From contig JAZDLW010000019.1 in the NCBI GenBank assembly GCA_043801595.1, positions 32,949 to 96,948 on the forward strand: a stretch of DNA of 64,000 nt, read 5' to 3'. Each line of letters starts with the position of its first letter. Position 1 is the first letter of the stretch. Below the pieces are notes generated by a model. The model saw only the letters and a program-made list of their open reading frames with translations. It was not told the origin of the DNA and did no database searches. Position numbers and translations under genes: made by a program. This document shows positions 23,287 to 60,682 of this stretch, piece after piece. This DNA comes from Candidatus Aenigmatarchaeota archaeon. GTDB taxonomy: Archaea; Aenigmatarchaeota; Aenigmatarchaeia; JACPZZ01.

Positions 23287-24255
23287 TCAGCGTCCGGGTA
23301 TCGGCTTCACAAACATATGTTCTTCCCAGTGAACTGTTTCGGTGTAGCCTGCTGACGGAAGCACCTTTTTACGGATATATTCGTCAAGCTCTACCGTTGT
23401 CTTTTCTTTCAATGTTCTGTAACTCCTTTCTATTTCCGCAAAAGCGCTTCCGGTCTCCCTTCTCAGAATTGCGAGATGGGTGTTGAGGCGGGCTGCGCAA
23501 TATCCGACTTTGTCTGAACCGGTTTCTTCGTGCATCCCGCGCATGCAATCGGTTATGACCGAAGCCGTTATTTCCGCGCGCTTGTCGCGGTGATGCTCTC
23601 TTCTGTAACTTCTTGTGCCCTCCTCGAATTTTCTTAGCGCTTCGTAATAGTCTTTCATGCCATTGATAATCTTTCCTGTCAGGAAGCTAAGATAATCCGG
23701 TTGCAGTTCAAAAGTGATCGGTGTCAGGTCGATTGTCACGTTTTTGTTAGACTCTGACTCGCTTGGTCCCAGTGGCGTGACTTTCTTTTGCTTGTATAGG
23801 ACGCCTCCCATGACCTCCGCTACTTCTGAATTTGTTTTTTGCAGGCCTTTTCCTTCAAATACATTGTTTGGCAGCAAAACGAAAACATGCTGCATAAGGC
23901 GGGTGTTGTAACCTTCAGTGTCGTCCAGAGGAGAAAGTATCGACCGCCAGTATTCCGAGGGCGGTTGCGACAAAATCAGGCTAGATATTCTGTCCCTGAT
24001 TTCATCAGGCGCACACGCGTTCTTTGTCAATATTTGTTTCTGTTTCTGGCTGTGGAAAGTCCTTACCCTTTCTTCTACAGCGGTTTTTTCAATACTTTCG
24101 ATTATCTGCGAACCGTAGGATGTTGCTATGTCCATTGCCAGCTGTTTCGTTTTTCCAGGGTCCTGTTCCGATTCGCGGAGCGTCAGGCGGAGGTCTTCTA
24201 CCGAGAACATGGCATCGTTGTTGATTTGTTGCATTTCTTCCCAGCTGTTCATCAT
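23287..24255 (-). CDS. Hypothetical protein (orphan, 322 aa)
   Basis: A long uninterrupted ORF with no recognisable motif and a soluble composition. It is divergent from 24333-25130. Confidence 0.5.
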   Translation of the reverse strand: MMNSWEEMQQINNDAMFSVEDLRLTLRESEQDPGKTKQLAMDIATSYGSQIIESIEKTAVEERVRTFHSQKQKQILTKNACAPDEIRDRISSLILSQPPSEYWRSILSPLDDTEGYNTRLMQHVFVLLPNNVFEGKGLQKTNSEVAEVMGGVLYKQKKVTPLGPSESESNKNVTIDLTPITFELQPDYLSFLTGKIINGMKDYYEALRKFEEGTRSYRREHHRDKRAEITASVITDCMRGMHEETGSDKVGYCAARLNTHLAILRRETGSAFAEIERSYRTLKEKTTVELDEYIRKKVLPSAGYTETVHWEEHMFVKPIPGR

Positions 24256-24332
24256 GACAAATCATTATCAGGTAAGTTTTAAATTACCATGAGAATGAAA
24301 GGTTTTAATCCCTTGCACGTCAGAAAAATCTT

Positions 24333-25130
24333 ATGAAAAACGGATGGAAAATCTACGTGTTTGAGCACGATCCTTATTCTTCCGAACTGGCAGAATCGCT
24401 GCAACTGGTATTCGGGCTGGAGAGGAGAAGCGTAAATGTAACGTACGGGGACAACAGGAAACAAATTATAAATAAAGTGAAAAAAGCCATCAACGGGGAT
24501 CATGAAAGGATTCTCACTGTCCTTGGTCACGGATACGCACACAAAATGACCTACGGCCTCTGCAAGCACGTCGCCGACAGTCGAAGCGACGGTTATGTCT
24601 ACTACCATTTCGACCAGCACGGCGACATCGGTCACATATGGACGCGCATCACCCACGGCGGCTTCGTAGCCAGATTGTTCAATGATACGAAAGCGCAGGA
24701 TGTTGTATTTTCCGATGAACCCGATTTCAACAGCCGCGCGCTTGCCAGGGGTTTGGACGTGGACGATACCGGGGCGTCGTTGATGACAAATAAGAACGTT
24801 CCTGACGCATATTGTTCGTTCGATCTGGATTGCATGCGTTACGAGGAAATAAAAACCGGCTGGCCGGGAGGAACGATGCATTCGATCGCATTGCTCAACG
24901 AAGTGGAAAATATCAAAACGAAGAAGGACATAATCTCAGCCGATGTCCTTGGCTATTCCGGCGAAAGGGATGCCAAAAGTCACGTGATGTATGCGGTGCT
25001 CATGGAGACGCTCATCGGAGGCGGACGCGTCGATGAATTCAAGTCGCTACACGAAATCGCAAAGAATGGGCGGATCGACTATCAAGACATGCTCAAAGAA
25101 TTCAAGTCAATCGGAAGTTGCGGACGCTGA
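24333..25130 (+). CDS. Hypothetical protein, possibly a divergent ureohydrolase (arginase/agmatinase) fold
   Basis: Candidate metal-ligand motifs occur in arginase-family order: LGHGYAH, HFDQHGD (D-x-H-x-D) and CSFDLDC (S-x-D-x-D). Similarity is otherwise weak. Confidence 0.35.
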   Translation: MKNGWKIYVFEHDPYSSELAESLQLVFGLERRSVNVTYGDNRKQIINKVKKAINGDHERILTVLGHGYAHKMTYGLCKHVADSRSDGYVYYHFDQHGDIGHIWTRITHGGFVARLFNDTKAQDVVFSDEPDFNSRALARGLDVDDTGASLMTNKNVPDAYCSFDLDCMRYEEIKTGWPGGTMHSIALLNEVENIKTKKDIISADVLGYSGERDAKSHVMYAVLMETLIGGGRVDEFKSLHEIAKNGRIDYQDMLKEFKSIGSCGR

Positions 25131-25140
25131 TAACGCATAC

Positions 25141-25163
25141 TAAAAAGAATAGCGCCGAGGAAG
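25141..25163. repeat. Distal direct repeat of the tRNA 3' end (att-like)
   Basis: TAAAAAGAATAGCGCCGAGGAAG matches TAAAAAGATTAGCGCCGAGGAAG at 27275-27297 in 22 of 23 positions. Confidence 0.8.
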
Positions 25164-25224
25164 CGATATACCTCGAAGTGTTCACATCCTGCCCTTGTTT
25201 TATCTTATTAGGACTTTCTATAGT

Positions 25225-25668
25225 TTACGTTGCATGCACAGCATAATTCGATGGCGCATACGAATCGTATAATTTCCAAATGTCGCCAATCTTTTGCATT
25301 CTAAAGGTGTTTGCGGGATCAAGATATGTTTTATTATTTTCTGTTTTTATCACATCCGCGGTAATAGTAGCATCGGTCTGATTGTTATACTCTACTTTGG
25401 TGATGTTTAGATCCATCCCCATTTTGGAGCATGCATCCGGTTGCGGTTTAGTTTCTACACAGAATTTTCTAACAACATCCCAATATTGGATACCCAGATA
25501 ATCTCCGGATTTTTCAAAATCACCAGATTTCCAAAGGGAAAGAAGTGCTCTAAGGTCGTTTTCCGGCGTATGTGAGAAATATGTGTTAAAAATAAGCCAA
25601 GCCATAGCAACGAACAGAACAATACTTACAATTCGCTTTTTATTAGGAGTTATTTTCAGTGTTTTCAT
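25225..25668 (-). CDS. Membrane-anchored hypothetical protein
   Basis: MKTLKITPNKKRIVSIVLFVAMAWLIFNTYF is a signal anchor, followed by a ~115-aa soluble domain. The start is at the internal ATG at 25668; the track ORF extends to 25743. Confidence 0.45.
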   Translation of the reverse strand: MKTLKITPNKKRIVSIVLFVAMAWLIFNTYFSHTPENDLRALLSLWKSGDFEKSGDYLGIQYWDVVRKFCVETKPQPDACSKMGMDLNITKVEYNNQTDATITADVIKTENNKTYLDPANTFRMQKIGDIWKLYDSYAPSNYAVHAT

Positions 25669-25750
25669 TCTCTCACTTGATGTATGTCCATGCCCATCCT
25701 TCCGGCCTCCAAACCTTAAACCCAAAGGATGGGATATGGACAATTTGACT

Positions 25751-25764
25751 TAGCGCCGAGGAAG
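25751..25764. repeat. Internal direct repeat of the tRNA 3' end (att-like)
   Basis: TAGCGCCGAGGAAG is identical to 25150-25163 and 27284-27297. Confidence 0.7.
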
Positions 25765-25952
25765 AACGACCCGGTTTATCAGGGTCATACAGCCTTCCGC
25801 ACGAAACTATGATGAGCTTTCATGTTATTGGGGTCGCTGGAAAATAAAGGCGACGGTAAAGCTCCCTTTTTGGCTGCATCTTGCCTAGTTTGCGGGTAAA
25901 GGCACCGAAATCTATAAAAACTATAACTGCTATAACACCTATAGGTGATATA

Positions 25953-26132
25953 GTGACCAACACTACAATAGCAGTGAGGAAAGAGACGAAAGAGCTGTTG
26001 AAGCACTTCGGCGGCAAAGGCGACACGTACGATGACGTTATCCAGAAGATGTCAGCGACATACGAAGAGTTTGTAAACACTCAATACAACCGTTTGACGG
26101 AAAAACATAAGTTCAAGAAGATGGACCTATGA
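25953..26132 (+). CDS. Putative antitoxin (ribbon-helix-helix-like) of the RelE pair
   Basis: TTIAVRKETKELLKHFGGKGDTYDDVIQKM resembles small archaeal antitoxins. There is a 4-nt ATGA overlap with the toxin gene. A GTG start at 25953 follows a TCTATAAAAACTATAA TATA-like element at about 25909-25924. The track ORF begins at a TTG at 25881. Confidence 0.55.
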   Translation: MTNTTIAVRKETKELLKHFGGKGDTYDDVIQKMSATYEEFVNTQYNRLTEKHKFKKMDL

Positions 26133-26392
26133 TGGCTGTCCTGATACACGACGCAGCCGATAAATCGCTAAGAAGTTTTGAGAAGAAAGTGCGGGAAAGG
26201 ATAAAACAGCAAATAAAACTTCTGGCTGAGAACCCGTATTCCACACAGTTGGACATCGTGAAACTCAAGGGAATAAACGACGGCCCGGACTTATTCAGGA
26301 TGCGCGTCGGTAATTACAGGGTCATTTATTTCATCCAAGATGGGAAAATCCTTATAACGGATATAGGAAGACGGGAACGAATCTATGGTTGA
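26129..26392 (+). CDS. relE: RelE/ParE-family toxin
   Basis: 87 aa. The pattern KQQIKLLAENPY....VKLKG...LFRMRVGNYRVIYFI.DGKILITDIGRRERIY is typical of RelE/StbE/YoeB-type mRNA interferases. Confidence 0.75.
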   Translation: MMAVLIHDAADKSLRSFEKKVRERIKQQIKLLAENPYSTQLDIVKLKGINDGPDLFRMRVGNYRVIYFIQDGKILITDIGRRERIYG

Positions 26393-26466
26393 TCCGCATG
26401 GTTGGCAAATAAAACCGACGGTGGGGATCCCTCGCTAGTTTTAAGTTTAGATATTGAATTCTAATT

Positions 26467-27180
26467 ATGGCAGTCGATGACAAGCTATCTAAATATTGTA
26501 AAGGAATAATAGAATACCCATTTTATAGCCATCCTTATTTTTCTGACGCTATTAACGCAAACGGAACTGTAGATGTTAAAAAATTTCAACAACGATATCA
26601 GACATTCTTATCAGATAAACGATTAAGACGATCCCTCTCTGATACTGAAAAAAAAGTGTTGCTGGGAAGAGCGGGCATAGAAGGTTACCAGAAAACCCAA
26701 AAGGAGATAGGAGCGGAAATGCGGCGATCCGGTAACAGAGTTTTTCAAATAGAAACAAAGGCGTTGAGAAAATTACTGCCAAGAAGCAACGGAGGTGTAT
26801 TAGACGCACTCTACCTTGAAGAGTTTGAAGCCACAAGTGCGAAGTACGCTAAATCGAAAGATTTTGATTTGGATTATATAAACCGAATTAAATCGCAGGC
26901 GGCGGCAAAGATCATGGAGGAAGAAGAAAAGACACGCAAACAAATACAGCTAACTGAAGAAAATGCTCGTCATAAGGCTCATTTAACTGAGTACGGTATC
27001 CAACATTTAGGACTTTCATCACGCACAAATAACAGCTTATTGAGAGGAGGCGTCGATGTCATAGATCAGCTAGAAGAAAAAAGTGATGAAGAATTACTTA
27101 AAATACGAAATGTAGGAGTAAAGTCAATAAGAGAAGTTCGTGAAAGACTGGAAGCTTATCACAAACAAAGGAAGCCCTGA
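26467..27180 (+). CDS. DNA-binding protein fusing a sigma-70 region-4-like HTH to an RNA polymerase alpha-CTD-like domain
   Basis: LSDTEKKVLLGRAGIEGYQKTQKEIGAEMRRSGNRVFQIETKALRKLL fits the sigma-70 region 4.2 pattern. LGLSSRTNNSLLRGGVDVIDQLEEKSDEELLKIRNVGVKSIREVRERL fits the alpha-CTD helix-hairpin-helix pattern. Confidence 0.6.
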   Translation: MAVDDKLSKYCKGIIEYPFYSHPYFSDAINANGTVDVKKFQQRYQTFLSDKRLRRSLSDTEKKVLLGRAGIEGYQKTQKEIGAEMRRSGNRVFQIETKALRKLLPRSNGGVLDALYLEEFEATSAKYAKSKDFDLDYINRIKSQAAAKIMEEEEKTRKQIQLTEENARHKAHLTEYGIQHLGLSSRTNNSLLRGGVDVIDQLEEKSDEELLKIRNVGVKSIREVRERLEAYHKQRKP

Positions 27181-27274
27181 TCACAAGACTGTTATTTTGG
27201 TGAGGTCTCCAACCAGTGGGTCTCCTGGGCCGGGAGTTTACCCTATAATTGAACTCCCTCGTATGGGCGTCCTC

Positions 27275-27297
27275 TAAAAAGATTAGCGCCGAGGAAG
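27275..27297. repeat. Proximal att-like repeat overlapping the tRNA 3' end
   Basis: TAAAAAGATTAGCGCCGAGGAAG. Positions 27287-27297 are the discriminator plus the 3' acceptor strand and the start of the T-stem of the minus-strand tRNA. Confidence 0.8.
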
Positions 27298-27520
27298 GGA
27301 TTTGAACCCTTACGGGACTTGCGCCCCACCGGATTTCTAAGGCTCCAAACTTAAAGGATTCCTCATCTCGCCGCCGTGATCAGAATCAAGCCTTGTTGTC
27401 ATAGCCTCTCAAGTATCGCCTATGCACCAATCATCTCTGGTATCAGCATATCCGGCGCATTTAACCTGGTTCTGCCTTCGATTGTACAGCTGGAATACTT
27501 CCAGCAGCAAAAACCTCGGC
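27287..27520 (-). tRNA. Class II tRNA (probably tRNA-Ser) interrupted by two intervening sequences
   Basis: On the minus strand, the 5' acceptor strand GCCGAGG+T is at 27520-27513. The D-arm and 5' anticodon stem GGCAGAACCAGGTTAAATGCGCCGGA are at 27476-27451. The 3' part at 27333-27287 is TCCGG-T-GGGGCGCAAGTCCC-GT-AAGGGTTCAAATCCCTT-CCTCGGC-G. It contains a long variable arm with a GCAA loop, a canonical T-arm, an acceptor strand complementary to the 5' end, and G73. The gaps are ~36 nt and ~110 nt. The anticodon is ambiguous: GCT at 27447-27445, or AGA/TAG at about 27339-27336. Confidence 0.6.
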
Positions 27521-27702
27521 TCTCCTCGGCATATTTTAATTGCGCGGAAAGGTTAATAAACGTCCGTTTGGCACGCCGCGTTTAGATACCAAGCTACGTC
27601 AAAAAATCACGCATAAATATGGCATATGACGTAGTTGAATGACAGGTATTATAAAAAAAACATTCGCTAAATCTAAAAGAAACGAAAAACGGAATAATTG
27701 TT

Positions 27703-36946: not shown

Positions 36947-37381
36947 CTACAATCGTCCGCTTGCTTTGATTTCAGCGAGAATTTGATCAGCGTCAATGCC
37001 CTTTTCGAACTCAATTACGATTTTCTCGGTCAGTTCTTTGATTTTGTCGTCTCGCGGATAGAGTACTGCCCTTTCATAACCACGTTTAGTCGCTTCTATT
37101 TGTATTCCTGCCAGAGCATCTTCGTATGTGTTCAACCCGTCCTTTGATACTATCATCTGGATTTTTGTGCAATATCTTCCTGAGCGGGTTCGTTGGTGCG
37201 GCCTTTTCAAGGCAATATGGTGTCCTTCGTAAATAAGGCCGGGTAGTATGGCGCCGGCTTCCAGTTTTTTCTCTGCGGATAGTATCATCAACGTCGCTTT
37301 TCCCTGCTTAGTTTCGGGATCCACATAACACTTTGCATTGTTCGGAGCAAAACTATCGCATTCAAAATAAACCTTTGCCAT
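36947..37381 (-). CDS. Hypothetical protein (144 aa)
   Basis: An uninterrupted ORF 2 nt downstream of the LAGLIDADG-like ORF. No motif recognised. Confidence 0.4.
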   Translation of the reverse strand: MAKVYFECDSFAPNNAKCYVDPETKQGKATLMILSAEKKLEAGAILPGLIYEGHHIALKRPHQRTRSGRYCTKIQMIVSKDGLNTYEDALAGIQIEATKRGYERAVLYPRDDKIKELTEKIVIEFEKGIDADQILAEIKASGRL

Positions 37382-37383
37382 CT

Positions 37384-37806
37384 TTATAACAAAAGAGAAA
37401 GAGATTTAAGCGCATTATCGTTGCTCTTTGTATAATGTATTTTTGAATTCGAATTTATAGACTCTAAAAACTTTCGTAAATGAGATTTGTCGGAATTCAT
37501 AAGACCGATGGACAAAGATTTGTCTCTCTCAGAAAGGCTGCCATCAGCTGCAATGAATCCTGCCCAATAAGCGGAAGCGGGATTTAGGTTTAAAAAGCAA
37601 TTCTCATTGCAACAAAATTTTCTTTTGAACCTTCCCATGTTTTGTAATTTCATTCCTTGGTTGTGCAGAGTTCCTAGAATGGTATTTCTACCACAATCGA
37701 AGACCAACGCTAATTGCGGAGCGGAAAATTTATTACTTTTGGCTAATTTTATGAGCGATCGAAGCTTCTTTTTGTCAGCAAATTTCTTTGCTCCAAACCC
37801 TTTCAT
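37384..37806 (-). CDS. HTH plus LAGLIDADG-like protein (free-standing homing-endonuclease relic?)
   Basis: AYWAGFIAADGSL matches the LAGLIDADG motif, followed by LSIGL...D...L.KF. The N-terminal SAPQLALVFDCGRNTILGTLHNQG looks like an HTH. At about 75 aa, the domain after the motif is short for a complete endonuclease. Confidence 0.45.
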   Translation of the reverse strand: MKGFGAKKFADKKKLRSLIKLAKSNKFSAPQLALVFDCGRNTILGTLHNQGMKLQNMGRFKRKFCCNENCFLNLNPASAYWAGFIAADGSLSERDKSLSIGLMNSDKSHLRKFLESINSNSKIHYTKSNDNALKSLSLLL

Positions 37807-37870
37807 AAGGCAACATAAAATTTTAACACTAAAAAAGACACATGTTTATACGGTGCCGATAGGATAGTTA

Positions 37871-38359
37871 TTATTCCTTTCCCATATTCTGTCTCTCAAA
37901 ATCTATATGCTTCGAATATTCTTTTTCGAGTGTTTCAACCGTTTTTTTAATTCTTTCATGCTCTTTAATCAAGCCTTCCGGGATTGTCAAATTATTTTTT
38001 TTACAATAATCATAGATAGCCTCGGAAAGTGCGTCTGCGGCTAAAACGGAGCAGTGAATCTTGGTGGCAGGAACTTCGCCCAATTCTCTCAAAACATCTT
38101 CCTTTCCAATCTTCAATGCATCTTCCAGAGTTTTACCTTTAACCATTGCTGTTATCAAACTTGTGTTTGCAATTGCAACAGCACAACCCAGACATTCAAA
38201 TTTCACATCAGAGAGTATTTTGTTATCGTCAACTTTTATATAAATTTTCATTATATCTCCACATTTGATATTGCCAGCTTCACCGACGCCGTCCGCGTTC
38301 TCGATCCTTCCCATATTTTTGGGATTCATGAAATGCTCCATCACTTTTTTTGAATACAT
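37871..38359 (-). CDS. iscU: Fe-S cluster scaffold protein IscU/NifU-like
   Basis: HFMNPKNMGRIENADGVGEAGNIKCGD....I.....I.DVKFECLGCAVAIA....T......KIHCSVLA contains the three conserved Cys of IscU. Confidence 0.88.
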   Translation of the reverse strand: MYSKKVMEHFMNPKNMGRIENADGVGEAGNIKCGDIMKIYIKVDDNKILSDVKFECLGCAVAIANTSLITAMVKGKTLEDALKIGKEDVLRELGEVPATKIHCSVLAADALSEAIYDYCKKNNLTIPEGLIKEHERIKKTVETLEKEYSKHIDFERQNMGKE

Positions 38360-38360
38360 A

Positions 38361-39554
38361 TTACACCTCAAATCCCTTTTTAAACGGCGAAATTCTTCTC
38401 AATCTCTCCACGCATCCTGGCAATACACTCAACAAGTAATCGACATCACTTTCTGCAGTTTCACGCCCGAGAGTCAATCTCAATGAACCGTGCGCTTCCT
38501 CGTGCTTCAGGCCGATCGCGAGCAACACGTGACTGGGTTCAAGCGATTTCGAAGAGCACGCGGATCCGGTTGACGCGGCGATTCCTGCCTCGTCGAGGAG
38601 AATCACAAGCCCCTCACCCTCGATGAATTTGAAACACAGGTTCGCATTGTTTGGAAGACGTTCTGTCGCATGGCCGTTTAACCATGTATTATCGATTTTT
38701 AGTGCGCCCGCTATGAGCTTATCGCGGAGTTTTGCCAGCCTTTTTGCTTCCGCATCCATCTCGACGCATGCGAGTTCTGCAGCTTTGCCGAACCCGATTA
38801 TTCCAGCAACGTTTTCCGTGCCCGACCTTAATCCTGATTCCTGCCCGCCGCCGTGAAACAGCGGATGCATTTTAACGCCTTTTCTTACATACAATGCGCC
38901 GACTCCTTTGGGTCCGTATATTTTGTGGGACGATATGGACAGCAAATCTATATTCATCTTCTTTACGTCAATCGGTATTTTGCCGAATGTCTGGACAGCG
39001 TCTGTGTGAAAAATCACGTTTCGCTCTTTGCAGATTTTCCCGATTTCTCCCACTGGTTCTATTGTCCCGATTTCATTGTTCGCATGCATTATTGACACGA
39101 GTATGGTATCCTTTGTGACGGAATTCTCCAGTTCATCCAGGCTGATTAGTCCGCATTTGTCAACCGGCAGGCGCGTGACAGAGAATCCGTCCTTCTCAAG
39201 AAATTTAGCTGTTTGCAACACGGCGTCATGCTCGATTGAGGACACGATTATGTGGTTTCCCCTGTTTCTGTTTGCATATGCAGTTTCCTGCAATGCGAGG
39301 TTGTCGGCTTCTGTTCCGCCCGATGTGAATATTATTTCGCCCGGCTCGGCGTTTATAACGCCTGCTATAATCTTTCTCGCGTTCTCAACAGCCTCGAAAG
39401 CTTCACGACCGAACGAGTGCAATGAAGACGCGTTGCCGTATTTTTCCGAGAAATAAGGCATCATCCCCTCCAAAACTTCCCTGCGTACCGGTGTTGAAGC
39501 TGCATAGTCCATGTAAACCCTTTTCATAATTTCATCCCATCGTTTGCTATACAA
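38361..39554 (-). CDS. iscS: Cysteine desulfurase IscS/NifS
   Basis: Contains YMDYAASTP, GNASSLHSFG, the PLP lysine context SISSHKIYGPKG, and the active-site loop SSGSACSS. Confidence 0.9.
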   Translation of the reverse strand: MYSKRWDEIMKRVYMDYAASTPVRREVLEGMMPYFSEKYGNASSLHSFGREAFEAVENARKIIAGVINAEPGEIIFTSGGTEADNLALQETAYANRNRGNHIIVSSIEHDAVLQTAKFLEKDGFSVTRLPVDKCGLISLDELENSVTKDTILVSIMHANNEIGTIEPVGEIGKICKERNVIFHTDAVQTFGKIPIDVKKMNIDLLSISSHKIYGPKGVGALYVRKGVKMHPLFHGGGQESGLRSGTENVAGIIGFGKAAELACVEMDAEAKRLAKLRDKLIAGALKIDNTWLNGHATERLPNNANLCFKFIEGEGLVILLDEAGIAASTGSACSSKSLEPSHVLLAIGLKHEEAHGSLRLTLGRETAESDVDYLLSVLPGCVERLRRISPFKKGFEV

Positions 39555-55958: not shown

Positions 55959-57833
55959 ATGTATTCATTAAATATGGCATTAATGGGGAAGATCGTCTTT
56001 TTTATGATTATTTTCATGCTGCCGGTATTTGTTATTGCCGAAGACAAGCCGGACTTGGGAACACTGGGGAGCATTCCAAAATTAACCGATGCGGAGAAAG
56101 TCGATGCGCCCGAACTTTATTCTTCGACAGTTTACCCGTCCTTCGGAACCCCATGCATGAATTTCACATACAGGGTATATTACAAGGACAGTCAAGGCCG
56201 TCCTCCGGCATACGTAAAAATATGGCACGATTACAAGTGGTACAACATGACAAAGGAAAGCGGAAATTATGCGAGCGAAGCAATGTATACATTCAATTAT
56301 GTGCCGACATCCGGCAAAGAACTGTTCTATTATATTGAAGCCAGCAATGGCGTTGGAAAGGCGAGGGCTGCGATAATAGACAGCCCGGACCAAGGTCCGC
56401 TACTCTATGCTGAAAAACTTGACAACAATGAAATAATTTTGCTGGACAATAACGGAAATAAATTATGGTCATATGAAACAAAAAACGACTGGGTTGAGGG
56501 CGTCGCACTTTCCGATGATGGCAGATACGCTGCTGCTGTTACAGGATACGCGATCTACCTGTTTTCAAACAGCAGCAACGAGACGCTAATAAAATGGAAA
56601 TTATGCGACAAGTGCGATGTGCCGAAGGTTACGATGGCAGGTTTCAACGGGGTGGACATTTCCGGAGACGGCAGATACATGGCAGGAACACTCGGAACCA
56701 CTCTTTATTATTTTGATACAGCATCCAGGCAGTTGCTCTGGAAAACATCCCTTGAGGCAAATGTCATAGGTGTTTCAATGTCCGATGACGGAGGGCGTGT
56801 CGCGGTTGGATTGGGAAACGCTGACAATAAGGGCGATAAGGTAATTCTTTTTAACAGCACAGGGGGAAAACTTTGGGAATATAAAGCCCCCAATCCCGGA
56901 TACACGCAGACCGGAAATTTCTACAAGCCAGACATCACTTCGGATGGTAGCTATACAGCAGTATCATCGGGATGCCCTGACAGAAGAGCTTATCTGTTCT
57001 CGAATAACGGGGAATTGCTTTTTATGAGCGAAATGCTCACAAGGGATTCACCTGTCCATGAGTCGGCGATATCGGATAACGGAGAATATATAGCGTATGT
57101 AGCAGATCAGGAGCAGGGCAAACCGAATTTATTTTTATTTTCCAAATCCGGCAGGAAAATATGGGAATTCTCGTCCCCGGACGACGCGACAGCGCGATCC
57201 GTTTCGATTTCATCCGATGGAAAATACATAGCATCCGGAACCCTGAGCGGGAATGTATATTTATTTTCGAGTGAAAGCAACGCTCCGCTCTGGAAATTCT
57301 CAGAAAGCGGGGATTTCAGAAAGATCGGCGATTTGAAACTGAGCCCTGACGGGAGATTTCTGGCAGCCGGGAGCAGTTCGAAAAAAATCTATCTTTTCTC
57401 AATAAACAGCAGCAAACCGTTGTGGGAATACACGGCTCCGACTTATGTGACATTCGTTGATTTCAACGGCAAGTATGTGGTTGCAGGTACAGGAGTCAGG
57501 CAATTCGTGTTTGAGGGGAACAGCGCATCCACAGAGGAGGTTCAATGCAGCGAAATAACCCAGATGCCTTACGTGGAAAGCGCCGATTCGAACGGCGCTT
57601 CTGCGAATAACACCGCTCCATCATATTGCGGGAATGGGATTTGCGAGAATTGGGCGGAATCGAAGGATATCTGTGCGCAGGATTGCTGCCCGGATTGTAA
57701 TAATAAAAACACCCAGTCGATCACTGGGAACAATACAACCAAAGAAACGGGCAGCCCCCGGAGAAATCTTGAAAATAAGAATTTCCTCGAAATCATAATC
57801 GATTTTTTCAGGAACCTGTTCGGAACAAAATAA
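55959..57833 (+). CDS. Secreted beta-propeller repeat protein with a Cys-rich C-terminal module
   Basis: A signal peptide is present after the internal Met (MGKIVFFMIIFMLPVFVIA). At least seven ~40-50 aa repeats share S(D/S)DG(R/K/S)Y(I/A/M)A.....(I/L)Y(L/Y)F...G..LW. The C-terminus is YCGNGICENWAESKDICAQDCCPDC. Confidence 0.7.
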   Translation: MYSLNMALMGKIVFFMIIFMLPVFVIAEDKPDLGTLGSIPKLTDAEKVDAPELYSSTVYPSFGTPCMNFTYRVYYKDSQGRPPAYVKIWHDYKWYNMTKESGNYASEAMYTFNYVPTSGKELFYYIEASNGVGKARAAIIDSPDQGPLLYAEKLDNNEIILLDNNGNKLWSYETKNDWVEGVALSDDGRYAAAVTGYAIYLFSNSSNETLIKWKLCDKCDVPKVTMAGFNGVDISGDGRYMAGTLGTTLYYFDTASRQLLWKTSLEANVIGVSMSDDGGRVAVGLGNADNKGDKVILFNSTGGKLWEYKAPNPGYTQTGNFYKPDITSDGSYTAVSSGCPDRRAYLFSNNGELLFMSEMLTRDSPVHESAISDNGEYIAYVADQEQGKPNLFLFSKSGRKIWEFSSPDDATARSVSISSDGKYIASGTLSGNVYLFSSESNAPLWKFSESGDFRKIGDLKLSPDGRFLAAGSSSKKIYLFSINSSKPLWEYTAPTYVTFVDFNGKYVVAGTGVRQFVFEGNSASTEEVQCSEITQMPYVESADSNGASANNTAPSYCGNGICENWAESKDICAQDCCPDCNNKNTQSITGNNTTKETGSPRRNLENKNFLEIIIDFFRNLFGTK

Positions 57834-57892
57834 CTAAATGGGGAAACCGTCAATTTTTATATCATAGGAAAGCTAAAAAATATTTAGATTCG

Positions 57893-60163
57893 ATGTCTGG
57901 TTTCAAGTTTTCATCGAGAAAAGCGTCCAAACAATCATTCCGCAAGCGGCATCCGATTTTCTTCTGGGGTTCCCTCGTTATAGGTTTGGCTGTTTTTGTG
58001 TTTGCGTTGAGCATACCTTCAAACCATAATATTCAGTCTCAATCCAAAGCGTTCACAGCCATTGTTGCAAAGGGACCAATCGCAGGCGCCACTGTGAGCG
58101 TCTACGAATTGAAAGATGACGGGACCAGAGGAAATTTGCTCATTGATTCTATGATTTCAGACGCTTCCGGGAGCGTAGACTTCTCTATACTCAAGGAACT
58201 TCCCACCCGCTTACTCGTGGAGTCTTCCGGAGGAGCATATAGGGATGAAGTTACCGGAGTGCAGGTGCAGTTATCCGGCAATGACGTGATTCATACAGTA
58301 TTACCGGCAGGCATACGGCAGGCTGCGGTAACACCATTCACTGATATGGCAGCCTCTTTAGCAACGAAATGGATGCAGCAGGGAATTCCGGCAGGCGATG
58401 CGGTGACGCAGGCGAACATTGCAGTTGCCCAGCAATATCAGCTCCAGAGCATTCTTGAGATTGTGCCAGTTGCTGCGAACGACCCGAGCGCAATGAAAGC
58501 GGCAAATCTGGATGCGAGAAAATACAGCGCGCTTCTGGCAGGGCTAGACCAAGAGGCGAAGAACATGAATGTCCGTGCCATAGATCTTGCGCAAGCGCTT
58601 GCAAATGACTGGTCTGACGGGATTGTGGACGGCACAGCAAATGGAAATCCTATCACGGTCAATGATTTGTCTGGAAAGCCTGTACAAATAACCGCGAAAA
58701 CAGGCCTTGACGATCTTCAAACCGCTGCCAACACTTTCCTTGCCGGCGCGAATGATGCAACAAAACTCAAGAAGATGGATATTTCATTGAATCCTGTCAG
58801 GGCAGATACAACATTTGCCATTACTACAACAGCGCTTCCTGTCTGGGAATCCGGCAAAGCCGGCGCATTTACAATTACAGCAAGCGGCGGAAAACCGCCT
58901 TATGTCTGGACTCTGAGGCAGGGTTCGACGCTTCCGAACGGATTTACGCTGAGCAGGGACGGGATTCTTTCAGGCAAGAGCACACTTTCTTTGGGAACAA
59001 CAAAGAGCATCTCCCCGCCATTTGTCGTAATCGTGAGCGACTCATCATCGCCGCCAAACACACGGGAAATCGAGTTGAGAATTACCATTGTCCAGTCTGC
59101 TCCGCAGCTCACACTCAGACCGGCCAAATGCATGGTTGGCAGAGCGTGCTCTGTGCAAGTCGCAACAGCAAGCGGCGGAACGCCTCCGTACTATTTCAAA
59201 TCCGATACGTTCAGAGCCGGAGCTCCGCCTATGGGCATGATGATAGATTTGAACGGATATCTGACAGGCACAACCAGAGTACAAGGAACGCATACTTATG
59301 GAGTTTGTGTTGTGGATATGGTCGGTGCGTCGAGCTGCGACACGACAGATGTGACCATAATCGAAGCAATTCCTGATGCCCAGATTGCCAATCTCACAGT
59401 GTTCTGGGCTGGCACAGGAAGCGGTTCGATAGGTTGGAATCCGGGCAGCATTGTGCAAAAGGACTGCGGAACCACTGACAGCGGAATTTATTGGTGTGTC
59501 CTGCCCTACAAACTTGGCACCAAAGTCACACTTACGAATGAACCGAACGACGAATCCACATTCGACAGCTGGTCCGGAGAATGCTCCGGAACCGATTGTT
59601 CTGTCACAATGGATAAAGATAAAACTGTAGTCGCAAATTTCGCAAGCAAGTCTGAAACATGGACCGGAAAGATTATTGGCACATTCCTTGAGGAGGGCTG
59701 TGCTTGGTGCGAGAAGGGAACTCTCGGCATCAACCTTGATGTGAGTATGACATTTTCAGATAGTTTGGTTGCTGCACTGAGAGGCAATAGCAGTGACCAG
59801 TATTATTCCCCCGCCAACGGCTACGGATACGTCAGCGGAACCTCAAGTTCGGCAACAGCACCAGTATCAAATACGAAGGATTGCACGTGTCAAATTACCG
59901 GCGGAAGCGTTACCAACATTCCGGTAGATGTCAGCGGCTACAGGGGCGAAGGAAAAAGCACGATTTCGATTTACTCAAGCAACACCACATATTCCATAGC
60001 TTTGGGCGGGCTTACCCACAATTGCCCGAATGATTTTCTGACACATCCCGTATCGGAATATGGGGTTACATTGGTGCCCACGTCCATCACAAATACAGTA
60101 ATTAAGGGGAATTTGGACGACGATAAAGACCATTCCGGCACATTCACGCTTACAAAGAAATAG
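57893..60163 (+). CDS. Membrane-anchored extracellular protein with putative Ig-like (He_PIG-type) and InlB-B-repeat-like modules
   Basis: The N-terminal anchor is HPIFFWGSLVIGLAVFVFAL. Two copies of GG(K/T)PPY....(L/F).....P.G(F/M).(L/I)...G.L(S/T)G are present. The InlB-B-repeat-like segment is VTLTNEPNDESTFDSWSGECSGTDCSVTMDKDKTVVANF. Confidence 0.55.
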   Translation: MSGFKFSSRKASKQSFRKRHPIFFWGSLVIGLAVFVFALSIPSNHNIQSQSKAFTAIVAKGPIAGATVSVYELKDDGTRGNLLIDSMISDASGSVDFSILKELPTRLLVESSGGAYRDEVTGVQVQLSGNDVIHTVLPAGIRQAAVTPFTDMAASLATKWMQQGIPAGDAVTQANIAVAQQYQLQSILEIVPVAANDPSAMKAANLDARKYSALLAGLDQEAKNMNVRAIDLAQALANDWSDGIVDGTANGNPITVNDLSGKPVQITAKTGLDDLQTAANTFLAGANDATKLKKMDISLNPVRADTTFAITTTALPVWESGKAGAFTITASGGKPPYVWTLRQGSTLPNGFTLSRDGILSGKSTLSLGTTKSISPPFVVIVSDSSSPPNTREIELRITIVQSAPQLTLRPAKCMVGRACSVQVATASGGTPPYYFKSDTFRAGAPPMGMMIDLNGYLTGTTRVQGTHTYGVCVVDMVGASSCDTTDVTIIEAIPDAQIANLTVFWAGTGSGSIGWNPGSIVQKDCGTTDSGIYWCVLPYKLGTKVTLTNEPNDESTFDSWSGECSGTDCSVTMDKDKTVVANFASKSETWTGKIIGTFLEEGCAWCEKGTLGINLDVSMTFSDSLVAALRGNSSDQYYSPANGYGYVSGTSSSATAPVSNTKDCTCQITGGSVTNIPVDVSGYRGEGKSTISIYSSNTTYSIALGGLTHNCPNDFLTHPVSEYGVTLVPTSITNTVIKGNLDDDKDHSGTFTLTKK

Positions 60164-60211
60164 AATACTGTCAGAATTTTTCAGGGAAATATGCGTTAGC
60201 AAGATAGAGCA

Positions 60212-60469
60212 CTAACCTTTCTTGACAAGTTCGCTTTTTAGTTTTTCCAAAAGAACTGGATCTAGTTTTATCTTAGAACATTCAGCTTGGTTGATTATGT
60301 AGCCAAGCATTTCCTTTGTCGGGTTGAAAAACTTTAACCTTTGCTCCAGATATCTTATCTGCTTTTCAAGTTTGGTAGGTTCAACGTTTTTGACATTTTT
60401 GATTTCAGCGTTGATTCTACTCAGCATTTCTATGAGTTTTTTAACATCCCCAGGTTCATAAGTTTCCAT
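60212..60469 (-). CDS. Hypothetical small coiled-coil protein
   Basis: 85-aa ORF with a charged, helical composition. Confidence 0.3.
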   Translation of the reverse strand: METYEPGDVKKLIEMLSRINAEIKNVKNVEPTKLEKQIRYLEQRLKFFNPTKEMLGYIINQAECSKIKLDPVLLEKLKSELVKKG

Positions 60470-60556
60470 GATATTATCTTTATTTTTTAAAATTATTAAA
60501 GTTTTTACGTAATAAGGTAATTTTTATGGCTTCAAAATCCATTCCATATTACCCAA

Positions 60557-60682
60557 TGGGGAAACCGTGATTTGAACACGGGTCACCGACTAATTCTAAA
60601 TCTTTCTTTCCCTTAAGGCTTTCTTGTTGAAAGAAAGGCTTACCCGAAGCCGGTATCTTAGACCAGGCTGGACCATTTCCCC
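60557..60682 (-). tRNA. tRNA-Pro (anticodon CGG) with a 51-nt intron at the canonical 37/38 position
   Basis: On the minus strand the acceptor stem is GGGGAAA/TTTCCCC with A73. The D-arm is GTCC-AGCCTGGTCTAA-GAT. The anticodon stem is CCGGC/GTCGG and the loop is TT-CGG-G|intron|A. The T-arm is CCGTG-TTCAAAT-CACGG. The intron spans 60592-60642. CCA is not encoded. Confidence 0.8.

What the first reader, a model, noticed from the sequence alone, without database searches (positions are those of the whole stretch)
25141..27297. ~2.1 kb insertion with no integrase, bracketed by three direct copies of a tRNA 3' end
**Seen in sequence.**
- The string AGCGCCGAGGAAG occurs three times on the + strand, at 25151-25163, 25752-25764 and 27285-27297.
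- The third copy is the genuine 3' end (discriminator, 3' acceptor strand, start of T-stem) of the minus-strand tRNA at 27287-27520.
- The two outer copies extend to 23 nt (TAAAAAGA[A/T]TAGCGCCGAGGAAG) with one mismatch. The middle copy shares 14 nt.
- The bracketed DNA carries no housekeeping genes. It holds a membrane-anchored ORF, a RelE/antitoxin pair and a sigma4/alpha-CTD fusion protein.
- By eye the 26.4-27.2 kb gene is more AT-rich than the flanks. This was not computed.
- I can find no integrase or recombinase ORF inside or next to the repeats.

**Established knowledge.** A tRNA 3' end duplicated downstream of the intact gene is the classic attL/attR footprint of site-specific integration.

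**Inference.** The pattern suggests two tandem integrations. They could be decayed elements, elements mobilised in trans, or an element type whose recombinase lies elsewhere.
Basis: partly seen in the sequence, partly recalled or inferred. Interest (0 to 1): 0.68.

Follow-up and report, generated by a model that had tools for sequence, protein, structure and literature searches.

The report
Integrase-less gene cassettes at tRNA ends
Two small blocks of foreign genes sit one after the other behind a tRNA gene of a DPANN (Aenigmarchaeota-like) archaeon, each bounded by a copy of the tRNA's last ~15 bases and with no integrase; the pattern recurs at another tRNA in this window and in related genomes, pointing to a family of mini-cassettes moved by an enzyme encoded elsewhere.

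Summary
AGCGCCGAGGAAG occurs exactly three times (expected 0.03). The outer copies match 23/24 nt, or 26/28 with flanks; the middle copy shares 15 nt. Copy 3 is the 3' end of a minus-strand class-II tRNA with two intervening sequences, missed by ARAGORN defaults and Rfam.

The bracketed 2.1 kb is the lowest-GC stretch of that size in the window. Its two largest genes have the lowest GC3 of 62 genes. Two relatives lack the block: in one the tRNA is followed after 40 nt by an aldehyde dehydrogenase gene, in the other after 49 nt by the orthologue of window gene 23287-24255.

No integrase, resolvase or Cas1 domain was found in any ORF of at least 190 aa in the 64 kb, and no split SSV-type integrase.

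The pattern is recurrent:
- tRNA-Pro at 60.6 kb has a 14-nt 3'-end repeat bracketing 2.7 kb.
- An Aenigmarchaeota contig has four copies of a tRNA-Val 3' end around three toxin-antitoxin cassettes.
- Another contig has one such cassette.

All repeats start at tRNA position 62/63. The tRNA-proximal cassette carries a sigma4/alpha-CTD gene in three of the four arrays.

Best reading: non-autonomous cassettes inserted site-specifically by a recombinase acting in trans. This is a new variant of a known kind.

The parts
27287..27520 (-). Class-II tRNA gene, the integration target. It has two intervening sequences. Its acceptor stem, T arm and G73 are Ser-like. The best ARAGORN model of the spliced sequence is Leu(UAG).
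   Evidence: The T arm, acceptor stem, D arm and variable arm can be read directly. ARAGORN accepts the spliced candidates. Exons are conserved and inserts vary in L123 and L126. ARAGORN defaults and Rfam miss it.
27274..27301 (.). tRNA-proximal repeat (copy 3). It covers tRNA positions about 59-73 plus a 13-nt trailer. The core is 27283-27297.
25765..27273 (.). Cassette E2 (about 1.5 kb): antitoxin, ParE/RelE toxin and a sigma4/alpha-CTD protein.
   Evidence: It is bounded by copies 2 and 3. L133 has the same gene trio next to a tRNA-Val.
25881..26132 (+). Putative antitoxin. The Pfam DUF7557 hit is weak, and the true start codon is probably internal to this ORF.
   Evidence: One search gives the weak hit. 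Its ORF overlaps the toxin ORF by 4 nt.
26129..26392 (+). ParE/RelE-family toxin (87 aa).
   Evidence: Pfam ParE_toxin 1e-10. PHROG RelE-like toxin 1e-17.
26467..27180 (+). 237-aa protein with a conserved N-terminal region, a sigma-70 region-4 HTH, a long helix and an RNAP alpha-CTD-like domain. It lies tail-to-tail with the tRNA.
   Evidence: - Pfam domain hits.
- AlphaFold2 model with pLDDT 86.5.
- Foldseek matches only alpha-CTD (TM-score 0.92) and sigma region 4 (0.77).
- GC3 of 0.31 is the lowest of 62 genes.
- Full-length homologues P0128, P0130 and P0133 exist.
25750..25764 (.). Middle repeat (copy 2), 15 nt, at the junction between E2 and E1.
25164..25749 (.). Cassette E1 (about 0.6 kb) with a single ORF.
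   Evidence: It is bounded by copies 1 and 2. An imperfect inverted repeat (13/17) lies near its ends.
25225..25671 (-). 148-aa protein with an N-terminal membrane anchor and no family match.
   Evidence: GC3 is 0.34, z = -2.7.
25140..25167 (.). Distal repeat (copy 1). It starts 10 nt after the stop codon of the arginase-like gene.
60557..60682 (-). tRNA-Pro(CGG) with a 51-nt intron. This is a second target of the same kind.
   Evidence: ARAGORN with introns allowed. T arm and acceptor stem confirmed.
60555..60568 (.). tRNA-Pro proximal repeat, AATGGGGAAACCGT. It covers tRNA positions 62-73 plus 2 trailer nt.
   Evidence: expected 0.02 by chance
57851..60554 (.). 2.7-kb block holding a 756-aa surface-type protein (57893-60163, +) and an ORF of about 85 aa on the minus strand (near 60.2-60.5 kb; exact coordinates not determined). 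It has no recombinase. Its GC is ordinary (0.466).
57837..57850 (.). tRNA-Pro distal repeat. It starts 4 nt after the end of ORF 55959-57833.

Best explanation
**What it is.** E1 (about 0.6 kb) and E2 (about 1.5 kb) are two small non-autonomous gene cassettes. They were inserted one after the other into the 3' end of the tRNA gene by site-specific recombination.

**How insertion works (inferred).**
- Each cassette, as a circle, carries an attP that mimics the tRNA from position 62/63 through the discriminator and a few trailer bases.
- Recombination with the tRNA (attB) rebuilds an intact tRNA and leaves a copy of that 11-24-nt core at the far end of the cassette.
- E1 went in first, with a 15-nt core. 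E2's attP also mimics 9 nt of trailer. It then went into the tRNA-proximal site.
- This order gives the observed arrangement: copy 3 (24 nt), E2, copy 2 (15 nt), E1, copy 1 (24 nt).

**The enzyme (inferred).** The recombinase is not on the cassettes. It acts in trans from elsewhere in the genome or from a helper element.

**A family, not a single case.** The cassettes belong to a family found in Aenigmarchaeota-like DPANN archaea. Members form arrays of one to three units behind different tRNAs (Leu/Ser-type, Pro, Val). They often carry toxin-antitoxin pairs. In three of the four arrays the tRNA-proximal unit carries a sigma4/alpha-CTD DNA-binding protein. That protein is most likely a regulator or an att-binding accessory factor, not the catalyst.

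**Shown:** the repeats, their register in the tRNA, foreign composition, absence of the block in relatives, absence of recombinase domains, and recurrence.

**Inferred:** the order of insertion, the circular intermediate, the type of enzyme and its action in trans.
For: **Repeats and their register**
- The repeats are far beyond chance.
- They start at tRNA position 62/63 in four different tRNA genes. They end 0-4 nt after the discriminator, or 13 nt for E2. This is the pattern expected if the element must restore the tRNA.
- The flank pattern of copies 1-3 fits sequential insertion at the tRNA-proximal site.

**Foreign origin**
- The insert is a composition outlier.
- The block is absent from L123 and L126.
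- None of the four proteins occurs in any of the 133 fetched loci.

**No recombinase on the cassettes**
- No Phage_integrase, Resolvase, Recombinase or Cas1 domain was found in the window's ORFs of at least 190 aa.
- None is listed in the gene tables of L132 and L133.
- No ORF is rebuilt across circle junctions.

**Recurrence**
- L133 has four direct copies of the tRNA-Val 3' end around three cassettes of 0.8-1.5 kb: PIN_3 + MazE-like, MazE + PIN, and a 62-aa ORF + ParE + sigma4/alpha-CTD.
- L132 has one 1.1-kb sigma4/alpha-CTD cassette bracketed by 13-nt repeats of its tRNA-Val.
- The window's tRNA-Pro has a 2.7-kb cassette.
- All seven cassettes have intact ORFs and none carries a recombinase.
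- Both tRNA genes recognisable in the window are occupied.
- Two L133 cassettes share 17 nt next to the core (CTTTCAAAAGCGGTTCA), which indicates a common recombination site.

**Literature**
- Tandem integration at one locus and integrated elements without an integrase are already recorded in archaea (PMC8371274).
Against: - No recombinase has been identified, so action in trans is an inference from absence. Only 64 kb of a 107-kb contig, and partial contigs of the relatives, could be read.
- No free or circular form, and no second copy of E1 or E2, was found in viral, plasmid or phage collections.
- The cores (11-15 nt) are short compared with the 40-50 bp usually reported for archaeal att sites (PMC8371274).
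- Within a locus, repeat lengths are fairly constant (window 14-15 nt apart from E2's 24 nt, L133 11 nt). That also fits target-site duplication.
- Neither relative is a clean empty site, because the DNA beyond the tRNA differs in all three genomes.
- The tRNA-Pro block has ordinary composition and no relative to compare it with.
Confidence: 0.5

Rival explanations
1. Decayed remnants ('gene capture'). E1 and E2 are what is left of two larger integrative plasmids or proviruses that once carried their own integrases. The integrase genes and most other genes were deleted after integration.
For: - This is the usual explanation for integrase-less integrated elements in archaea (PMC8371274, section 'Integration is a major lifestyle', cited).
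- TA modules and orphan genes are typical leftovers.
- The sigma4/alpha-CTD homologue in L130 sits in a two-gene, low-GC3 insertion between rpoK and eno, with no tRNA and no flanking repeat. So genes of this family can end up fixed in the chromosome.
Against: - All seven cassettes in four arrays lack a recombinase and none has a recombinase fragment.
- All are small (0.6-2.7 kb) with intact ORFs.
- The non-functional repeat copies are perfect or nearly so: 15/15, 23/24, 14/14, 13/13 and 11/11 in three further copies. That is not what long decay would leave.
Confidence: 0.25
2. Target-site duplications. The repeats are not att cores but duplications made by a transposase of the casposase (Cas1) type, or a similar enzyme. 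The enzyme recognises the conserved T-loop box and makes staggered cuts from position 62/63. The cassettes would be MITE-like non-autonomous derivatives.
For: - Casposons insert into the 3'-distal part of tRNA-Leu genes, make 14-bp duplications, and form tandem arrays separated by one shared duplication (PMC4779613).
- Three of the window's repeats are 14-15 nt.
- The left boundary is the same in four unrelated tRNA sequences, just after the T loop.
- The same cassette type sits at different tRNAs.
- The ends of L133 cassette 7656-8611 match in inverted orientation (13/17), starting at or 1 nt from the two cassette ends. E1 has a 13/17 inverted repeat that starts 9 and 3 nt in from its two ends.
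Against: - No Cas1, PolB or transposase was found in the window or in the gene tables of L132 and L133.
- The inverted-repeat scores are not significant against shuffles (p = 0.08-0.69).
- Repeat length varies from 11 to 15 nt across loci, and reaches 24 nt for E2.
- E2's end next to the tRNA repeats 9 nt of the native trailer (TCTTTTTAG). A duplication model does not explain this.
- The right boundary tracks the end of the tRNA.
Confidence: 0.15
3. No insertion at all. The repeats are chance matches, a generic dispersed repeat or terminator motif, or an assembly artefact that joined foreign DNA at short shared strings.
For: - The outer copies include an oligo-T tract that would serve as an archaeal terminator.
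- The window comes from a metagenome contig.
- Two Logan contigs of the L123 population (L124, L125) both start at the same base inside the T-loop intron of this tRNA, near its 3' end.
Against: - Chance expectation is 0.02-0.03.
- The string occurs only at these three places.
- The same architecture appears in independent assemblies from other samples (L132, L133).
- 15-24-nt repeats are shorter than assembler k-mers.
- An artefact would not produce three ordered direct copies with coding-dense DNA between them.
Confidence: 0.03

Closest known systems
tRNA-targeting integrative elements of archaea (pNOB8-type and SSV-type tyrosine-integrase elements; 'gene capture' of She et al.; tandem iMGEs of Krupovic et al.)
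   Same: - Insertion at the 3' part of a tRNA gene.
- Direct repeats made of the tRNA 3' end.
- The tRNA is restored.
- Tandem occupancy of one site.
- Foreign composition.
- Integrase-less examples are on record (PMC8371274).
   Different: - There is no integrase and no split int(N)/int(C) fragments.
- Units are only 0.6-2.7 kb with one to three genes.
- Cores are 11-24 nt rather than 40-50 bp.
- The same design recurs at several tRNAs and in several genomes without any autonomous member seen.
CIMEs (cis-mobilisable elements) and site-specific accretion next to ICEs in Streptococcus. This comparison rests on my own knowledge of Pavlovic and Bellanger et al.; I did not re-read the papers here.
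   Same: - Units flanked by att sites.
- The units lack recombination genes.
- They sit in tandem, separated by an internal att copy.
- They are mobilisable by an integrase supplied in trans.
   Different: - CIMEs are bacterial.
- Their target is the 3' end of a protein-coding gene (fda).
- The helper ICE is known. No helper is known here.
Integron cassette arrays, including archaeal integrons (PMC9668308)
   Same: - Arrays of very small, recombinase-less cassettes separated by recombination sites.
- Rich in toxin-antitoxin genes.
- The enzyme is not on the cassettes.
   Different: - No intI or attI lies next to the arrays.
- The separators are copies of a tRNA 3' end rather than attC hairpins. 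attC structure was not tested.
- Cassette genes point in both directions, so there is no common promoter logic.
Casposons (family 2, Methanosarcina)
   Same: - The target is the 3'-distal part of a tRNA gene.
- Duplications are about 14 nt.
- Arrays are tandem and separated by one shared duplication (PMC4779613).
   Different: - No Cas1 or PolB.
- No convincing terminal inverted repeats.
- Units are ten times smaller.
- Repeat length is not constant.

Membership tests
tRNA-targeting integrative element (tyrosine-recombinase genomic island) | Direct repeats (attL/attR) consisting of the 3' part of a tRNA gene, with an intact tRNA at one end | tested here: met
   Three copies, with the core starting at tRNA position 63. 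The tRNA is complete after removal of its inserts.
tRNA-targeting integrative element (tyrosine-recombinase genomic island) | Integrase gene inside the element, usually next to the tRNA | tested here: not met
   Pfam, PHROG and NCBIfam scans of all four ORFs found no recombinase. None was found in any ORF of at least 190 aa in the window.
tRNA-targeting integrative element (tyrosine-recombinase genomic island) | Absence from related genomes (empty site) and foreign composition | tested here: met
   L123 and L126 lack the block, although the DNA beyond the tRNA also differs between genomes. GC is in the lowest 0.3% of windows.
SSV-type ('suicidal') integrase element | attP lies inside the integrase gene, so int(N) and int(C) fragments abut the two att copies and are rejoined in the circle | tested here: not met
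   Only 50-86-codon stop-to-stop frames cross the junctions of E1, E2 or E1+E2 circles. The flanking ORFs have no integrase similarity.
Integron | intI integrase and attI at one end of the array | tested here: not met
   No Phage_integrase hit in the window or in the gene tables of L132 and L133.
Integron | attC hairpin site at the end of each cassette | not tested
   No attC model was available. The separators are tRNA 3'-end copies. Imperfect inverted repeats near the cores are not significant.
Casposon | Cas1 (casposase) and family-B polymerase genes | tested here: not met
   No such Pfam hits in the window or in the gene tables of L132 and L133.
Casposon | Terminal inverted repeats plus target-site duplications of fixed length | tested here: inconclusive
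   Repeat lengths across loci are 11, 13, 14, 15 and 24 nt. The end-to-end inverted-repeat test gave shuffle p = 0.08-0.69.
CIME-like non-autonomous integrative cassette | Flanked by att sites, no recombination genes, mobilised by an integrase supplied in trans | tested here: inconclusive
   The first two features are met. Mobilisation and a helper integrase could not be tested with these data.
Type II toxin-antitoxin module (ParE/RelE) | Small toxin of the ParE/RelE fold preceded by an overlapping small antitoxin gene | tested here: met
   ParE_toxin 1e-10 and RelE-like PHROG 1e-17. The two ORFs overlap by 4 nt. The antitoxin family assignment is weak (DUF7557, below the curated cut-off).

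The most novel reading that the evidence does not exclude
Aenigmarchaeota-like DPANN archaea may have a dedicated cassette-capture system at tRNA genes that works like an integron.

- A recombinase encoded elsewhere would insert tiny promoter-bearing cassettes at tRNA position 62/63 of many different tRNAs, building arrays.
- The sigma4/alpha-CTD protein is found in the tRNA-proximal cassette of three of the four arrays. It would be the system's att-site-binding specificity or directionality factor.
- The unusually dense tRNA introns of this lineage would then be a host counter-measure that breaks the target, or a by-product of the traffic. An example is the strict-BHB 46-nt intron at 59/60, right beside the att core, in the unoccupied L123 allele.
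- That would give a natural test case for the Randau-Soll (introns block integration) and Sugahara (elements deliver introns) hypotheses.
Probability: 0.15. Interest if true: 0.85.

Novelty: new variant of a known kind. Interest (0 to 1): 0.64.

Why it matters
**Mobile DNA in DPANN archaea.** These archaea have tiny genomes and their mobile DNA is poorly known. If arrays of recombinase-less mini-cassettes at tRNA 3' ends are a regular feature of the lineage, they would be a route for gene gain: toxin-antitoxin pairs, surface proteins and DNA-binding proteins with bacterial-type domains. This route would be invisible to island finders that look for integrases, and here also to tRNA finders.

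**tRNA introns and integration.** The locus places an occupied, intron-free T arm beside a related allele that is unoccupied and carries an intron 2-3 nt from the recombination core. This bears on the old question of whether archaeal tRNA introns protect against integration or are delivered by it.

**Annotation.** Intron-rich tRNAs missed by standard tools hide integration sites.

Tried and rejected
- **Split SSV-type integrase.** Circularised E1, E2 and E1+E2 gave no meaningful junction-spanning ORF.
- **Free or related elements.**
  - The 23-nt att string is absent from viral contigs.
  - The proteins of E1 and E2, and an N-terminal family profile, have no relatives in viral contigs.
  - There is no DNA match in plasmids or phages.
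  - tblastn against plasmids hit only bacterial rpoA C-terminal domains.
- **Exact look-ups of window proteins.** They are not on record, so the rest of the 107-kb contig could not be read.
- **Arginase-like gene as an anchor.**
  - It has only two distant relatives (63-64%). In both it is followed by a conserved 162-aa gene, so neither is an empty site.
  - A weak tblastn match of that 162-aa gene to 25721-25895 (DPDKPG and flanking residues) is overlapping rather than collinear. I judged it chance.
- **Fourth, fossil att copy near 24298-24319.** By my own hand alignment this string matches the T arm and the start of the acceptor strand at 16/24. It lacks the acceptor part. Homology to L126 starts 6 nt after the tRNA-CTAGTC end, so there is no att copy at that junction.
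- **Metagenome scan for the same tRNA 3' end.**
  - The 120 loci are almost all tRNA-Ser genes of other archaea.
  - They have no 3'-end duplication except one 171-nt case.
  - Their downstream genes are housekeeping, with no integrase among the 25 most frequent of 55 families; single-member families were not all shown.
- **Strict bulge-helix-bulge search.**
  - It found the L123 T-loop intron perfectly.
  - It found no convincing motif at the expected borders of the window's two inserts.
  - The identity of the tRNA (Leu-UAG or Ser) therefore stays open. Rfam gave only a weak tRNA-Sec-like hit.
- **Sigma4/alpha-CTD protein as a hidden recombinase.** The confident model is all-helical and matches only alpha-CTD and sigma region 4.
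- **Defence-system library.** Only domain-level noise.
- **Terminal inverted repeats.** Not significant.


Full report
**1.

- AGCGCCGAGGAAG occurs at 25151, 25752 and 27285 on the + strand and nowhere else in the window, even with one mismatch allowed. Chance expectation is 0.03.
- The outer copies align over 28 nt with two mismatches (25140-25167 and 27274-27301). Within that, 24 nt differ at one base. The middle copy shares 15 nt.
- Read on the minus strand, copy 3 is the end of a tRNA:
  - the last three bases of the T stem, the acceptor strand CCTCGGC, discriminator G at 27287, then trailer;
  - T arm AAGGG-TTCAAAT-CCCTT and a 17-nt variable arm;
  - a D arm GCAG-AACCAGGTTA-ATGC;
  - the 5' acceptor strand GCCGAGG at 27520-27514.
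- ARAGORN with default settings and Rfam at gathering score do not report this gene. It carries an insert of about 36 nt after U8 and one of about 110 nt before the anticodon loop.
- When candidate spliced sequences are built, ARAGORN accepts them as a class-II tRNA. The top model is Leu(UAG).
- The acceptor stem, T arm and G73 are those of archaeal tRNA-Ser genes. I therefore leave the amino-acid identity open.
- The gene is real. In two related genomes the exon blocks are conserved while the inserts differ in length and number.

**2. Organism and surroundings**

- The window is archaeal. It holds Cbf5, eIF2-alpha, SecY, Rpb3 and deoxyhypusine synthase.
- The nearest named relatives are Candidatus Aenigmatarchaeota/Aenigmarchaeota MAGs.
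- Upstream of the locus lies the end of the ribosomal-protein/SecY/Adk/Cbf5 cluster. Downstream lies a 2-oxoacid:ferredoxin oxidoreductase operon.

**3. The bracketed DNA is foreign**

- Its GC content is 0.410 against 0.457 for the window. Only 0.3% of 2.1-kb windows are as low.
- The sigma4/alpha-CTD gene has GC3 0.31 and the membrane-protein gene 0.34. These are the lowest and third-lowest GC3 of 62 genes. The toxin-antitoxin pair is ordinary.
- The four proteins have no close relatives. The sigma4/alpha-CTD protein hit only bacterial RpoA C-terminal domains in the word-indexed search.

**4. Relatives lack the block**

- *L123.* Its POR alpha is 89% identical. The gene order is Cbf5, a 222-aa gene, aldehyde dehydrogenase, the same tRNA, POR. 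The tRNA end lies 40 nt from the start of the dehydrogenase gene, and there is one copy of the 13-mer.
- *L126.* Its POR alpha is 77% identical. The tRNA is followed after 49 nt by a 322-aa gene that is 77% identical to window 23287-24255.
- About 45 nt upstream of that gene's start codon align between L126 and the window. The alignment stops 6 nt from the tRNA trailer of L126.
- So the window has about 2.95 kb (the arginase-like gene plus E1 plus E2) where L126 has nothing.
- The arginase-like gene has no att copy on its far side. Its history is separate and unresolved. Its two known relatives sit in another context.
- The DNA downstream of this tRNA differs in all three genomes. That is the behaviour of an insertion hotspot, but it also means neither relative is a textbook empty site.

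**5. No recombinase**

- Pfam scans of the four ORFs, the neighbours and every ORF of at least 190 aa in the 64 kb gave no integrase, resolvase, large serine recombinase, transposase or Cas1. PHROG, NCBIfam and PADLOC scans of the cassette ORFs added nothing.
- Seven ORFs without any hit remain, all far from the locus.
- Joining the ends of E1, E2 or E1+E2 into circles does not rebuild an ORF. The SSV-type split integrase is therefore excluded.

**6. The pattern recurs; this changes the reading**

The exhaustive profile search found a few full-length relatives of the 237-aa protein. Their contexts were as follows.

- *L133* (Candidatus Aenigmarchaeota).
  - The homologue P0133 is preceded by a 62-aa ORF and a ParE toxin. 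This is the same trio as E2.
  - It is followed, tail to tail, by tRNA-Val.
  - The 3' end of that tRNA, TGGGCCCGAAG, occurs four times in direct orientation at 7645, 8612, 9443 and 10927.
  - These copies delimit three cassettes of 956, 820 and 1473 bp. They hold PIN_3 with a MazE-like gene, MazE with PIN, and the trio.
- *L132* (same assembly as L126).
  - The homologue P0130 is followed by a tRNA-Val.
  - It is bracketed by two copies of AATGCTCCCACCG, giving a 1082-bp cassette.
- *Scan of all fetched loci.*
  - Among the 195 T-arm candidates, 3'-end duplications occur only in these loci, in the finding itself, in one unrelated 171-nt case, and in a second place in the window.
  - That second place is tRNA-Pro(CGG) at 60557-60682. 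Its 14-nt end AATGGGGAAACCGT recurs at 57837-57850.
  - It brackets 2.7 kb with a 756-aa surface-type protein and a small ORF.
- Both tRNA genes recognisable in the window are occupied.
- In all four tRNAs the repeat begins at position 62 or 63 and runs through the discriminator plus 0 to 4 bases, or 13 for E2.
- None of the seven cassettes has a recombinase and all have intact ORFs.
- Two L133 cassettes share 17 nt next to the core.
- In L130 the homologue P0128 lies with a second low-GC3 gene between rpoK and eno. The window has nothing at that place, there is no tRNA, and there is no flanking repeat. Genes of this family therefore change place between genomes.

**7. Mechanism**

- The register of the repeats fits classical site-specific integration. 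The left edge is fixed inside the T stem. The right edge tracks the end of the tRNA. In that mechanism the element carries a copy of the tRNA end, so the gene is restored.
- The flanks fit two successive events.
  - E1 entered with a 15-nt core.
  - E2's site also copies 9 nt of the native trailer (TCTTTTTAG). E2 then entered the tRNA-proximal site.
  - This yields the observed 24-nt, 15-nt and 24-nt copies.
- Seven of seven cassettes lack a recombinase, and the redundant repeat copies are perfect or nearly so. I therefore favour non-autonomous cassettes moved in trans over decay of once-autonomous elements, though decay is the standard explanation in the literature (PMC8371274).
- A serious alternative is target-site duplication by a casposase-like enzyme.
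  - Casposons insert in the 3'-distal part of tRNA-Leu genes, make 14-bp duplications, and form tandem arrays with one shared duplication (PMC4779613).
  - Against it: no Cas1 or PolB, inverted-repeat scores no better than shuffles, repeat lengths of 11 to 24 nt, and E2's trailer mimicry.
- The sigma4/alpha-CTD protein is not the catalyst by any known fold. A confident model (pLDDT 86.5) is all-helical. Foldseek matches only the alpha-CTD (TM-score 0.92, 0.8 A) and sigma region 4.
- Its constant position next to the tRNA suggests a regulator or an att-binding accessory factor. This is inference only.

**8. Comparison with known systems**

The closest are:
- archaeal tRNA-targeting integrative elements, including tandem and integrase-less cases (PMC8371274);
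- bacterial CIMEs and accretion (from my own knowledge);
- integron cassette arrays, now also known in archaea (PMC9668308);
- casposons (PMC4779613).

The locus fails the defining gene-content tests for an integrase-bearing island, an SSV-type element, an integron and a casposon. It works most like a CIME or integron cassette. I rate it a new variant of a known kind.

**9. Link to tRNA introns**

- In L123, the unoccupied relative, the T loop carries a 46-nt insert.
- A strict hBHBh' motif predicts its removal at 59/60, giving exactly the window's T arm.
- That site is 2-3 nt from the left edge of the recombination core.
- This fits the idea that introns break attB sites (Randau and Soll, as summarised in PMC4090602).
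- It also fits the idea that elements deliver introns (Sugahara et al., PMC3293823).
- With three alleles it is only an anecdote, because L126 is unoccupied without that intron.

**10. Limits**

- Only 64 kb of the contig and partial contigs of relatives were readable.
- The genome-wide and metagenome-wide scans were each limited to one use.
- No read data were available.
- The enzyme, the circular intermediate and present-day mobility are all inferred.

Noticed in passing
window 57837-60682: A second locus of the same kind. The 14-nt end of tRNA-Pro(CGG) (AATGGGGAAACCGT, tRNA positions 62-73 plus 2 nt) is repeated 2.7 kb downstream. It brackets a 756-aa surface-type protein and a small ORF. 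There is no recombinase, and GC is ordinary.
   Followed up: partly
window 27287-27530; L123 9457-9830; L126 3920-4224: - The target tRNA is heavily interrupted: two inserts in the window, plus a strict-BHB 46-nt intron at 59/60 in L123 or an insert of about 54 nt in the D loop in L126.
- Standard tRNA finders and Rfam miss it.
- Strict BHB motifs were not found at the borders of the two shared inserts.
- Whether the mature tRNA is Leu(UAG) or a Ser type is unresolved.
   Followed up: partly
window about 27375-27440 (minus strand), inside the large tRNA insert: A core of the large intervening sequence is conserved across all three genomes (ACTTGAGA..ATGAYAACAAGGCTTGATTCYGAT, with C-box-like and CUGA-like strings) while the rest of the insert varies. 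It could be a structured or guide RNA. Rfam gave no hit.
   Followed up: no
window 27514-27530: The 5' acceptor strand GCCGAGG is present twice, 3 nt apart. Both copies are conserved in L123 and L126 while the 3-nt spacer varies. Which copy is the tRNA 5' end, and what the other does, is unknown.
   Followed up: no
window 26467-27180; L130 10001-10756; L132 499-1296; L133 10001-10885: A small protein family joins a conserved N-terminal region (HPYF..NGTVDV..FQ.RYQ), a bacterial-type sigma-70 region-4 HTH and one to three RNAP alpha-CTD-like domains, in archaea that have neither sigma factors nor alpha subunits. The alpha-CTD-like domain also occurs in arrays of up to 10 copies in many long proteins.
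   Followed up: partly
L124 and L125, position 1 (corresponds to L123 about 9499): Two Logan contigs from different runs carry the same POR protein as L123. Both start at the same base inside the T-loop intron of the tRNA. A contig break at that point hints at population heterogeneity or a repeat at the tRNA 3' end.
   Followed up: no
window 24256-25139 compared with L126 4225-4271: Relative to L126, the arginase-like gene (the highest GC3 in the window, 0.605) is also extra DNA between the tRNA and the 322-aa gene. It has no att copy on its far side. In two other relatives it sits next to an inverted POR operon instead.
   Followed up: partly
window 36947-38371: A second low-GC3 patch: genes at 37384-37806 and 37871-38371 (NifU-like) have GC3 of 0.36 and 0.37 (z about -2.5). 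It lies beside the 26%-identical homologue of the 162-aa gene that follows the arginase-like gene in relatives.
   Followed up: no
L094 5118-5300 (and L108): In an unrelated GC-rich archaeal contig, the same tRNA-Ser 3' end (CCCTTCCTCGGCG) is repeated 171 nt downstream of the tRNA. This may be a very short insertion scar or a tRNA fragment.
   Followed up: no
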